64,000 nt of DNA from Escherichia phage NHEP29. The position numbers were made by a program, and so were the translations under genes. The stretch lies in sequence record PQ511150.1. One strand, written 5' to 3'. The first letter of the stretch is position 1. Each line of letters opens with the position of its first letter. The notes below the pieces were generated by a model. The model ran no database searches and was not told the origin of the DNA. It saw only the letters and a program-made list of their open reading frames with translations. Positions 36,500 through 36,780 of this stretch are shown here, piece by piece.

Positions 36500-36780
36500 G
36501 TTTCCACCTACTAGGTAAGTGTTTGTACGAAACGCCGGGATTCGAACCCGGTTATTAAGCAGTTGACGCTACTCAATATTTTTAAAAGGCCATATCTCGA
36601 CCATATCCGAACGTTCCGTCAAAAACGCTACTCGGCTTACGGCAAAGATATTTCCTCGAATCGTTAATTAGGTGCGCCGTTTCTGCTGTGATGTAAGGGG
36701 ATATTAACAAATCGTAAAGATTTATTAAGACCAGTCCTTACTCAGGGAACATCAGTCCGACGACTTGCCGGTAGCGACCC
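36500..36780 (-). ncRNA. ORF-free structured region with tRNA-like T-arm; candidate small stable RNA(s)
   Basis: No ORF on either strand; minus-strand CCGGG-TTCGAAT-CCCGG at 36535-36551; I could not fold a canonical cloverleaf. Confidence 0.3.

What the first reader, a model, noticed from the sequence alone, without database searches (positions are those of the whole stretch)
36500..36780. ORF-free, structured 280-bp region beside the tRNA genes
No ORF on either strand. It contains a tRNA-like T-arm (minus-strand CCGGG-TTCGAAT-CCCGG, 36535-36551) flanked by a plausible acceptor pairing (CGGAACG with CGTTTCG), but the interval is too long and lacks a clean D-arm. It is bounded by a terminator at 36455-36483. 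T4 encodes two small stable RNAs in its tRNA cluster, so this may be an equivalent, a tRNA-derived pseudogene or an unusual tRNA.
Basis: seen in the sequence. Interest (0 to 1): 0.5.

Follow-up and report, generated by a model that had tools for sequence, protein, structure and literature searches.

The report
T4 small stable RNAs rnaD–rnaC
This gene-free stretch holds this phage's copies of two small, highly structured RNAs (rnaD and rnaC) that were found in phage T4 decades ago, so it is a rediscovery, though nobody yet knows what these RNAs do.

Summary
The window comes from an RB69/JS09-type (Mosigvirus) T4-like phage. On the minus strand, 36790-36526 aligns base for base with the T4 features annotated rnaD (species 2 RNA) and rnaC (species 1 RNA). 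rnaD is 36790-36671 (87.5% identical to T4). rnaC is 36664-36526 (97.8%). A conserved trailer and the terminator (36483-36456) follow.

It is not a tRNA or a decaying pseudogene.

The T-arm is real. The proposed acceptor partner CGGAACG is not supported. Covariation shows that the 3' strand pairs with the RNA's own 5' end (CGAUUCG).

rnaC is a four-helix, tRNA-shaped RNA. It has an acceptor stem, a T-arm, a 10-bp hairpin and a ~60-nt rod. The two hairpin loops (UUGAC and GUCAA) are complementary in all 25 distinct homologues, in three co-varying versions. rnaD is a 5' hairpin plus a long rod closed by its 3' end.

A covariance model built without T4 or Mosigvirus sequences hits the window once (142.5 bits). 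Rfam has no family for either RNA.

The function is still unknown in the literature I could search. Likely reading: RNAs matured by the tRNA-processing machinery that act in trans, possibly as tRNA mimics.

Already known; interest is low to moderate.

The parts
36671..36790 (-). rnaD homologue (T4 species 2 RNA), 120 nt. Its first bases overlap the stop codon of the upstream ORF.
   Evidence: Aligns over its full length with T4 misc_RNA T4s002, 87.5% identical. Structure counts: 96.1% of cells paired against 32-56% in the slid controls, and 8 of 23 pairs with double changes. MFE z = -3.5.
36767..36783 (-). rnaD 5' hairpin GCCGG-GUCGCUA-CCGGC (rnaD positions 8-24).
   Evidence: 100% paired in 29 sequences. 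The closing pair is A-U, G-C or G-U. One C-G becomes A-U in the Vequintavirinae copy. The promoter/terminator scan picks up the same hairpin on the plus strand.
36672..36679 (-). rnaD 3' strand CGGCGCAC. It pairs with GUCGUCG at 36764-36758 and closes the long rod, leaving an ACC-like 3' tail.
   Evidence: RNAalifold and the single-sequence MFE agree. The core of 5 pairs is 100% paired but nearly invariant, so there is no covariation test.
36665..36670 (-). Spacer UAAUUA between rnaD and rnaC.
   Evidence: Corresponds to AAAUUA between the two annotated T4 RNAs. The same AAUUA-type leader separates rnaC from the upstream tRNA in Karamvirus.
36526..36664 (-). rnaC homologue (T4 species 1 RNA), 139 nt. 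It is a tRNA-shaped four-helix RNA.
   Evidence: 97.8% identical to T4 misc_RNA T4s001. Covariance model R1, built only from non-T4 and non-Mosigvirus homologues, hits 36525-36664(-) at 142.5 bits, E = 6e-37, the only hit in 64 kb. The MFE equals the comparative structure, z = -4.0.
36657..36663 (-). rnaC acceptor-stem 5' strand CGAUUCG. It pairs with CGUUUCG at 36534-36528 (7 pairs, two of them U.U).
   Evidence: Position 3:70 is A-U in 9 sequences and G-C in 16. The two U.U become U-A and C-G in Tegunavirus.
36592..36651 (-). rnaC rod (helices P2-P5), taking the place of a tRNA D-arm. Its apical loop contains UUGAC at 36622-36618.
   Evidence: 13 of 15 pairs in P2-P4 and 4 of 5 in P5 show double changes. 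The Gelderlandvirus and Klebsiella-phage versions have a different sequence but the same rod.
36553..36578 (-). rnaC 10-bp hairpin with loop CGUCAA (36568-36563). GUCAA is complementary to the rod loop UUGAC.
   Evidence: Stem: 9 of 10 pairs with double changes. Loop-loop pairing: 100% in 25 of 25 sequences, in three versions: UUGAC/GUCAA, UUGAU/AUCAA (Tegunavirus) and UUGGC/GCCAA (Marfavirus).
36535..36551 (-). rnaC T-arm CCGGG-UUCGAAU-CCCGG, directly abutting the acceptor 3' strand as in a tRNA.
   Evidence: 100% paired. The third pair is G-C, U-A, A-U or U-G. True tRNAs align end to end with model R1 at 12-25 bits through this frame.
36612..36618 (-). It is actually the 3' strand of P5.
   Evidence: Pairing with the 3' end has no compensatory change, and all 500 shuffles do at least as well. 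Pairing with GCGUUUU upstream covaries.
36484..36525 (-). Conserved 3' trailer: hairpin CACUUAC-CUA-GUAGGUG (36521-36505), then GAAACCCCGACAAGGU.
   Evidence: Nearly invariant in T4, JS09 and Dhakavirus, and kept even where rnaC is deleted. An A-U pair here corresponds to G-C in T4.
36456..36483 (-). Intrinsic terminator GCCCCUUCC-GAAA-GGUUGGGGC followed by U6. This is the end of the tRNA/small-RNA transcription unit.
   Evidence: Read directly from the sequence. Conserved in T4 as GCCCCGACC-GAAA-GGUUGGGGC-U5.
36787..37131 (-). 114-aa ORF (RB69ORF150c type, phrog_3355, unknown function) inserted between tRNA-Arg and rnaD. It is context, not part of the RNAs.
   Evidence: It is absent from T4, where tRNA-Arg abuts rnaD.
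37150..37304 (-). tRNA-Arg(UCU) at 37226-37150 and tRNA-Met(CAU) at 37304-37230, upstream on the same strand.
   Evidence: ARAGORN and Rfam RF00005, 71.1 and 59.4 bits.

Best explanation
The interval holds the orthologues of phage T4 rnaD (species 2 RNA, 36790-36671) and rnaC (species 1 RNA, 36664-36526), both on the minus strand. They are followed by a conserved trailer and the terminator of the tRNA operon.

Shown here: homology, synteny and conserved structure. rnaC is a tRNA-shaped RNA with four helices. (1) An acceptor stem forms between its own 5' and 3' ends and stacks directly on (2) a canonical T-arm. (3) A 10-bp hairpin stands where the anticodon arm would be. (4) A ~60-nt rod stands where the D-arm would be. 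The loops of helices 3 and 4 are complementary and co-vary. rnaD is a 5' hairpin plus a long rod closed by its 3' end, leaving an ACC-like tail.

Inferred: both RNAs are transcribed with tRNA-Met, tRNA-Arg and the inserted ORF up to the terminator at 36456. They are then cut out by the host tRNA-maturation machinery. RNase P would act at the rnaC 5' end, guided by the acceptor/T-arm 'top half'. 3' trimming and CCA repair would act on the N-C-A tail. This would explain why rnaC sits like a tRNA gene, 5-8 nt from its neighbours, inside the tRNA arrays of other genera.

Most likely function (roughly 0.3-0.4, not shown): the mature RNAs act in trans as protein-binding RNAs. rnaC would present a tRNA-like acceptor/T-loop face on a rigid body that cannot decode, that is, a tRNA mimic or decoy for a tRNA-recognising host or phage factor.
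For: Identity: colinear alignment with the T4 features annotated rnaD and rnaC. Identity is 97.8% for rnaC and 87.5% for rnaD. About 800 of 50,697 phage records share the element, and some annotate it as rnaC or rnaD (RB10, RB59, RB3, RB9, T2L).

Independent model test: R1, built from 11 Karam-, Teguna-, Gelderland- and Moonvirus and Klebsiella-phage copies, gives a single window hit of 142.5 bits.

Structure, rnaC: 89-92% of cells paired against 36-47% in the slid controls. 28-31 pairs show double changes, and 0 of 500 shuffles reach the observed values. The loop-loop pairing holds in 25 of 25 sequences, in three compensated versions. Single-sequence folds of the window, PG7, fHe-Yen9-01, CF-SP2 and Clarke_MM3 copies give the same architecture. 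Structure, rnaD.

tRNA-like maturation: rnaC lies between tRNA-Trp and tRNA-Gly with spacers of a few bases in Karam-, Gelderland- and Moonvirus. rnaD follows the CCA of tRNA-Arg in T4 and of tRNA-Tyr in phage A5-4. The Marfavirus rnaC copies encode U-CCA after the acceptor, while others have U-ACA or U-UCA. True tRNAs align to R1.

Expression in T4: both RNAs were detected by RNA-seq, classed as late RNAs and validated by a Northern assay (an RNAC probe is described) (PMC9697503).

Selection acting in trans and tied to the host: one SNP inside rnaD arose in all lines of a T4-like phage evolved on the semi-permissive host ECOR34 (PMC12685909). rnaC and rnaD also occur independently of each other in different genera.
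Against: No expression data exist for this phage, and the RNA ends are transferred from the T4 annotation.

In the window rnaD is not preceded by a tRNA but by an ORF, so its 5' end may be made differently.

The rnaC acceptor stem has two U.U mismatches and an extra 5' nucleotide. CCA is not encoded in most copies, and the annotated T4 rnaC 3' end (…CGUA) carries no CCA.

The roles of RNase P and 3' trimming are from my memory of the 1970s-80s T4 literature. I could not retrieve those papers here.

The trans-acting tRNA-mimic function is inference only. Reviews and recent papers state that the function is unknown (PMC3014915, PMC9697503, PMC12685909). From memory, T4 deletions that remove the whole tRNA region are viable on laboratory strains.

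The closing helix of rnaD is invariant, so it is untested by covariation.
Confidence: 0.85

Rival explanations
1. The RNAs have no trans function. They are cis-acting 'punctuation' and stability modules of the tRNA operon. tRNA-like and rod-like structures would recruit RNase P and RNase E, define cleavage sites and protect the 3' end of the polycistronic precursor. The stable RNAs would be leftovers of that processing.
For: They are always embedded in or at the end of tRNA clusters and abut tRNA 3' ends. A trailer and terminator follow, and these are conserved even when rnaC is deleted. rnaC has the acceptor/T-arm minihelix that RNase P recognises.
Against: A processing handle needs only the acceptor/T-arm. 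Yet the rod, the 10-bp hairpin, the co-varying loop-loop pairing and several invariant single-stranded stretches (GAGGA, GGCCUU, UUCCCUG) are also maintained across genera. Dhakavirus loses rnaC, and Karamvirus and others lack rnaD, while keeping their tRNAs. rnaD has moved alone into a Vequintavirinae phage. A convergent SNP in rnaD arose on one specific host.
Confidence: 0.25
2. They are base-pairing regulatory small RNAs that target host or phage mRNAs through their conserved single-stranded segments.
For: They are small, stable and abundant late in T4 infection. They contain invariant unpaired motifs, such as rnaD UUCCCUG and CACAG and rnaC UUUAAAAAU.
Against: No target was sought or found here. 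There is no blastn similarity, including antisense, to any complete E. coli genome. Most of each RNA is locked in helices, and the architecture (acceptor/T-arm, rods) resembles protein-binding or tRNA-like RNAs rather than Hfq-type small RNAs. [quoted passage not shown]
Confidence: 0.12
3. The 3' ~93 nt (36619-36527) is an unusual long-arm tRNA or a degenerate tRNA pseudogene that uses CGGAACG/CGUUUCG as its acceptor stem. This is the first reader's structural reading, and it is also what some annotation pipelines call.
For: ARAGORN calls the PG7 copy a 95-nt tRNA-Met, and a record annotates it so. Another record has 'tRNA-OTHER' over it. Rfam tRNA-Sec aligns end to end at 16.6 bits, E = 1.6. 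The two heptamers pair in 85.7% of cells.
Against: That pairing has no compensatory change, and all 500 shuffles do at least as well. It is broken in the Tegunavirus, Gelderlandvirus, Klebsiella-phage and several Karamvirus copies. ARAGORN makes no call in the window, T4, AS6, fHe-Yen9-01 or CF-SP2. The Rfam score is far below the gathering score of 47. CGGAACG has a co-varying partner elsewhere, and the 3' strand co-varies with the 5' end. There is no anticodon stem. Pseudogene decay is excluded by the covariation.
Confidence: 0.03

Closest known systems
Phage T4 rnaC (species 1 RNA, T4s001) and rnaD (species 2 RNA, T4s002)
   Same: The same genes. Alignment is full-length and colinear (97.8% and 87.5% identity). 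The order is the same (tRNA-Arg … rnaD, 6-nt spacer, rnaC, trailer, terminator), and so are the strand and the conserved secondary structure.
   Different: A 114-aa ORF separates tRNA-Arg from rnaD here, whereas they abut in T4. The apical part of the rnaD rod is a different sequence version. There are three substitutions in rnaC, one of which (position 1, U to A) adds a possible eighth acceptor pair. The element is unannotated in the RB69 and JS09 records.
Canonical and long-arm (class II, Sec) tRNAs, Rfam RF00005 / RF01852
   Same: A 7-bp acceptor stem closes the molecule and is directly contiguous with a 5-bp T-stem and a UUCGAAU T-loop. The junction has four helices. There is an N-C-A tail after a discriminator-like U. 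The gene sits inside tRNA arrays. tRNAs align to the rnaC model.
   Different: 139 nt long. No D-arm and no G18G19 loop. The 'anticodon-position' hairpin has 10 bp and a 6-nt loop. A ~60-nt rod replaces the D-arm. Two U.U pairs sit in the acceptor stem. It fails ARAGORN and the Rfam thresholds.
tRNA-like processing handles and mimics (tmRNA tRNA-like domain; MALAT1 mascRNA; gammaherpesvirus-68 tRNA-like RNAs; bacterial YrlA). This comparison is from my own knowledge.
   Same: An acceptor/T-arm 'top half' without a decoding anticodon. It is presumably read by RNase P and the 3'-end enzymes.
   Different: No tmRNA call by ARAGORN. No Rfam hit to tmRNA or YrlA. The only hits to mascRNA and permuted tmRNA are 10-14-bit matches restricted to the T-arm. 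There is no tag reading frame, and the body architecture differs.
   Same: Two loops in one phage RNA are mutually complementary and co-vary between related phages.
   Different: No sequence or structural homology. T4-type packaging needs no RNA. Whether the rnaC loops pair within one molecule or between molecules is not known.

Membership tests
T4 rnaC (species 1 RNA) | Full-length sequence homology to the annotated T4 RNA | tested here: met
   136 of 139 positions identical to NC_000866 71046-70908.
T4 rnaC (species 1 RNA) | Position at the 3' end of the tRNA cluster, after rnaD and before the conserved trailer and terminator | tested here: met
T4 rnaC (species 1 RNA) | Family-wide secondary structure (acceptor, rod, hairpin, T-arm, loop-loop pairing) | tested here: met
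   Model R1, built without T4-type sequences, scores 142.5 bits over its full length. The MFE equals the consensus.
T4 rnaC (species 1 RNA) | Accumulates as a stable ~140-nt RNA in infected cells | not testable with these tools
   Shown for T4 only (PMC9697503).
T4 rnaD (species 2 RNA) | Full-length sequence homology to the annotated T4 RNA | tested here: met
   105 of 120 positions identical to NC_000866 71171-71053. Both ends and the 5' 50 nt are nearly invariant.
T4 rnaD (species 2 RNA) | Conserved fold (5' hairpin plus a rod closed by the 3' end) | tested here: met
   96.1% of cells paired, 8 of 23 pairs with double changes. The closing helix is invariant, so it is untested by covariation.
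T4 rnaD (species 2 RNA) | Lies immediately 3' of a tRNA (tRNA-Arg in T4) | tested here: not met
   In the window a 114-aa ORF lies between them. Only a CCAAA remnant precedes rnaD. The same arrangement is found in RB69 and JS09. This is an arrangement variant and does not count against homology.
tRNA (RF00005 / ARAGORN) | Cloverleaf with a D-arm and a 5-bp anticodon stem with a 7-nt loop, scoring above the family threshold | tested here: not met
   No ARAGORN call and no RF00005 hit in 36456-36790. tRNA-Sec scores 16.6 bits against a gathering score of 47.
tRNA (RF00005 / ARAGORN) | Acceptor stem contiguous with a T-arm carrying a UUCRA T-loop | tested here: met
   This resemblance explains the mis-calls in PG7 and G9062.
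tRNA pseudogene | Relaxed constraint: pairs decay without compensation | tested here: not met
   31 of 50 pairs keep pairing through double changes, and 0 of 500 shuffles reach the observed covariation.
tmRNA | tRNA-like domain plus a tag reading frame and pseudoknots, detectable by ARAGORN or Rfam | tested here: not met
   No ARAGORN tmRNA call. Only a 10.1-bit T-arm match to permuted tmRNA.

The most novel reading that the evidence does not exclude
It would expose a free acceptor end and T-loop to titrate a tRNA-recognising factor, for example a host tRNA-directed immunity nuclease or a maturation enzyme. rnaD would be an independent, horizontally mobile module that tunes host range. That would give the 50-year-old 'species 1 and 2 RNAs' a counter-defence or host-adaptation role.
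Probability: 0.15. Interest if true: 0.7.

Novelty: already known. Interest (0 to 1): 0.3.

Why it matters
As a finding it is a rediscovery. The T4 genome record annotates both RNAs, and orthologues in T-even relatives are expected.

Three things make it modestly useful.

(1) The function of rnaC and rnaD is still unknown. The comparative models obtained here give concrete, mutable targets for experiments. For rnaC these are the true acceptor pairing and a loop-loop contact with three compensated versions. For rnaD they are a fold plus apical regions that have been exchanged between versions. The two RNAs also occur independently across genera.

(2) Public phage records often mis-annotate this locus as a 95-nt tRNA-Met, as 'tRNA-OTHER', or as short hypothetical proteins. 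Rfam has no family for either RNA. A curated covariance model would clean up about 800 genomes.

(3) rnaD has crossed into an unrelated phage subfamily, and a published evolution experiment found a host-specific convergent SNP in it. Both hint at a selectable function linked to the host.

Tried and rejected
- Rfam at gathering thresholds over the whole window, and at E up to 10 over 36400-36900, gave only chance-level hits (tRNA-Sec 16.6 bits, terminator look-alikes). There is no family for these RNAs.
- ARAGORN found only tRNA-Arg and tRNA-Met.
- An anticodon-arm reading of GGCCUUUUAAAA has no stem. ARAGORN's CAU 'anticodon' appears in PG7 only.
- My first idea for rnaD was a local GUC-GUCG-GAC hairpin plus UGAUG/CAUCA pairing. 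I replaced it with the RNAalifold/MFE rod, because position 40 co-varies with 107 (U-A, A-U, G-C) rather than with 99.
- Looking for a host origin or target: blastn against 5,426 complete E. coli genomes found nothing. A pattern scan of 185,579 bacterial and archaeal genomes with the invariant rnaD core also found nothing.
- Looking for more distant relatives: IMG/VR and metagenome pattern scans returned only T4-like phages plus unrelated tRNAs. Weak R1 hits in other loci are ordinary tRNAs.
- Literature searches for a function (rnaC/rnaD, species 1 RNA, p2Sp1, RNAC with T4 phage) found only statements that the function is unknown. The Miller 2003 T4 genome review is not held in the library.
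- Pfam and PHROGs searches of the flanking ORFs gave only families of unknown function.

Full report
**What the window is.** The 461 bases around the finding match 806 phage records. The best is Escherichia phage GADS24 at 99%, followed by JS09/HX01-type Mosigvirus genomes. In JS09 and RB69 the flanking genes are e.5, e.6, RB69ORF150c, tRNA.2-4, ipI and 57B. This is the tRNA region of a T-even phage, transcribed on the window's minus strand. ARAGORN and Rfam find tRNA-Arg(UCU) at 37226-37150 and tRNA-Met(CAU) at 37304-37230, both on the minus strand, and nothing else in the window.

**Checking the observation.** The interval has no ORF of 60 aa or more, only mechanical ORFs of 28-42 aa. The T-arm CCGGG-UUCGAAU-CCCGG is at 36551-36535 on the minus strand, and a hairpin plus U6 terminator is at 36483-36456. 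Both halves fold much better than shuffled sequence, with z = -4.0 and -3.5. So the description is accurate. The proposed acceptor pairing, however, fails the comparative test described below.

**Identity.** The T4 record annotates two misc_RNAs just downstream of tRNA-Arg: rnaD ('small, stable RNA; species 2 RNA', 71171-71053) and rnaC ('species 1 RNA', 71046-70908). The minus strand of the window aligns colinearly with both.
- rnaD is 36790-36671, with 105 of 120 positions identical.
- The spacer UAAUUA is 36670-36665.
- rnaC is 36664-36526, with 136 of 139 positions identical.
- The 42-nt trailer and the terminator are conserved too.

Other records annotate the same element as rnaC or rnaD (RB3, RB9, RB10, RB59, T2L). 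The RB69 RefSeq record and JS09 leave it blank. Many other records place short 'hypothetical protein' CDSs over it. The one arrangement difference from T4 is a 114-aa ORF of unknown function (phrog_3355) between tRNA-Arg and rnaD. Its stop codon overlaps the first bases of rnaD.

**rnaC structure.** I collected 25 distinct homologues. They come from Tequatro-, Mosig-, Karam-, Teguna-, Gelderland-, Moon-, Kanagawa- and Marfavirus, an Edwardsiella-phage (PEi20) contig identical in this region to Klebsiella phage KLB31, and Citrobacter phage Ursula. RNAalifold, the single-sequence MFE and manual inspection agree on one architecture. In the list below, rnaC position n corresponds to window coordinate 36665 - n.
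- Acceptor stem, 2-8 with 131-137.
- A 3-bp junction helix, AGG with CCU.
- A rod of four helices (14-19/68-73, 22-27/60-65, 30-33/55-58, 37-41/50-54) ending in a loop that contains UUGAC.
- A 10-bp hairpin, 87-96/103-112, with loop CGUCAA.
- A T-arm, 114-118/126-130, directly abutting the acceptor 3' strand.

On a MAFFT alignment of 21 sequences, 91.9% of cells pair, against 36-44% when partners are slid. 28 of 51 pairs show double changes, and on every measure but one no shuffle reaches the observed value. On a model-guided alignment of 25 sequences the figures are 89.3%, 31 of 50 pairs, and 0 of 500 shuffles.

The acceptor stem has two U.U pairs in most phages. These become U-A and C-G in Tegunavirus. 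Position 3:70 switches between A-U (T4 and Mosigvirus type) and G-C (all others).

The loop UUGAC (36622-36618) is complementary to GUCAA (36567-36563) in all 25 sequences, in three compensated versions:
- UUGAC/GUCAA in 20 sequences.
- UUGAU/AUCAA in Tegunavirus.
- UUGGC/GCCAA in Marfavirus.

Whether this contact forms within one molecule or between molecules cannot be decided from sequence.

CGGAACG (36618-36612) can pair with the 3' strand in the T4-type sequence. Across the family it shows no compensatory change, all 500 shuffles do at least as well, and it is disrupted in several genera. CGGAACG is the 3' strand of the apical rod helix, where it co-varies with GCGUU. The same complementarity misleads software. 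ARAGORN calls the PG7 copy a 95-nt tRNA-Met, and the GenBank record follows it. Rfam's tRNA-Sec model aligns at 16.6 bits.

**Independent model test.** Rfam has no family, so I built model R1 from 11 homologues, excluding all T4- and Mosigvirus-type sequences. It hits window 36525-36664(-) over its full length at 142.5 bits, E = 6e-37, and nothing else in the 64 kb. Real tRNAs in other loci align end to end with R1 at 12-25 bits, which shows that the frame is tRNA-like.

**rnaD structure.** Twenty-nine distinct homologues support four elements:
- A 5' hairpin GCCGG-GUCGCUA-CCGGC, with two co-varying pairs.
- A closing helix GUCGUCG with CGGCGCAC, which leaves an ACC-like 3' tail. It is invariant, so covariation cannot test it.
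- A 4-bp helix in which position 40:107 occurs as U-A, A-U and G-C.
- A further stem with four co-varying pairs.

Overall 96.1% of cells pair, against 32-56% in the slid controls, and 8 of 23 pairs show double changes. The apical part of the rod exists in at least four unrelated sequence versions. The 5' 50 nt and the 3' 25 nt are almost invariant.

**Distribution.** About 800 of 50,697 phage records carry the locus. All infect enterobacteria, and nearly all belong to the Tevenvirinae.
- rnaC occurs without rnaD in Karam-, Teguna-, Gelderland-, Moon-, Kanagawa- and Marfavirus. In several of these (Karam-, Gelderland-, Moonvirus and Citrobacter phage Ursula) it sits like a tRNA gene between tRNA-Trp and tRNA-Gly, and in Tegunavirus just upstream of tRNA-Trp.
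- Dhakavirus keeps rnaD and the trailer but lacks rnaC exactly.
- A full rnaD copy follows tRNA-Tyr in the Vequintavirinae phage A5-4.
- Nothing similar exists in complete E. coli genomes or in 185,579 prokaryotic genomes scanned with the rnaD core.

**What it does.** The papers I could search say the roles are unknown: a 2010 review, a 2022 omics study and a 2025 evolution study. The 2022 study detected both RNAs in T4, classed them as late RNAs and validated this with a Northern assay. The 2025 study found one SNP shared by all lines of a T4-like phage evolved on a semi-permissive host, and it lies in rnaD.

From the anatomy I infer the following. The RNAs are made from the tRNA operon transcript that ends at 36456. 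rnaC is released by RNase P and 3' trimming through its acceptor/T-arm 'top half'. Its N-C-A tail is a full U-CCA in Marfavirus, which points the same way. The involvement of RNase P and related enzymes in T4 is from my memory of the older literature and was not checked here.

The whole body of each RNA is under structural selection, not just the processing handle, and the two RNAs come and go independently. I therefore favour a trans-acting, protein-binding role, with rnaC acting as a non-decoding tRNA mimic. I put this at about 0.3-0.4. A purely cis-acting processing or stability role is about 0.25. A base-pairing small-RNA role is about 0.1. An unusual tRNA or pseudogene is effectively excluded.

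**Verdict.** It is already known as a kind and as a gene pair. The structural details worked out here (the true acceptor pairing, the loop-loop contact, the rnaD fold, the distribution and the mis-annotations) are useful for follow-up, but they do not change its classification.

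Noticed in passing
window 36787-37131 (-) and 36786-36800; L046:74-628; L043:674-1228: The junction between tRNA-Arg and rnaD looks like an ORF-insertion hot spot. T4 has no ORF there. The window, RB69 and JS09 carry a 114-aa ORF (phrog_3355) whose last codons, GAT ATG CCA AAA TAA, align with T4's tRNA-Arg 3' end GAUACCAAAU. A Tequatrovirus (sutha) and a Dhakavirus (ESCO10) carry a different 184-aa ORF at the same spot, again followed by GAAAUACCAAAU.
   Followed up: partly
L043:1203-1346, L044:1203-1346, L050, L058, L062-L065: Dhakavirus genomes keep rnaD, the trailer and the terminator but lack rnaC precisely (…GCGCACCGA|ACACUUGCC…). This shows the two RNAs are separable.
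   Followed up: partly
L044:1136-1200 (Enterobacteria phage IME540): A ~65-nt truncated rnaD-like element, ending in CCGGCGCACC and containing GCCGUCG…GACUGAU, lies between tRNA-Arg and the full rnaD. It looks like a tandem partial duplication.
   Followed up: no
L045:1203-1323 (Escherichia phage A5-4, Vequintavirinae): A full-length rnaD homologue lies directly 3' of tRNA-Tyr in a phage from a different subfamily. It is closest to the Dhakavirus UP19 version (84%) and carries compensated changes in the 5' hairpin. It appears to be a horizontal transfer.
   Followed up: partly
L003:1554-1648 (PG7, KJ101592); NC_054920 (vB_EcoM_G9062); many records: Public annotations mislabel rnaC as a 95-nt 'tRNA-Met' or 'tRNA-OTHER'. 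Others cover rnaC and rnaD with short 'hypothetical protein' CDSs and even ribosome-binding sites.
   Followed up: yes
L004:161-238 (Enterobacter phage AS6) versus L003:160-237 (PG7): ARAGORN reports 'tRNA-??? anticodon (tt)' in AS6 where PG7 has tRNA-Lys(UUU). This may be a phage tRNA-Lys with an altered anticodon loop.
   Followed up: no
L029:13134-13270 (-) (metagenome contig Ga0172381_10002134): A 137-nt element has an acceptor-like GCGCUUG/CAAGCGC closure and a canonical T-arm. It scores 21.9 bits against the rnaC model and gets no ARAGORN call. It may be another oversized tRNA-like RNA, unrelated in sequence.
   Followed up: no
window 36633-36625 and 36574-36566 (rnaC positions 32-40 and 91-99): The 9-nt direct repeat GAGUAGCGU occurs in both hairpins whose loops pair. 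In KaAlpha the complementarity between the two hairpins extends to 19 bp and dominates the MFE. It could be a trace of an internal duplication or of an alternative fold.
   Followed up: partly
window 36484-36525 (-): The trailer contains CCCCGAC, a copy of the terminator's 5' strand as it appears in T4 (GCCCCGACC). In the window this trailer copy would pair better with GGUUGGGG than the terminator's own mismatched 5' strand does.
   Followed up: no
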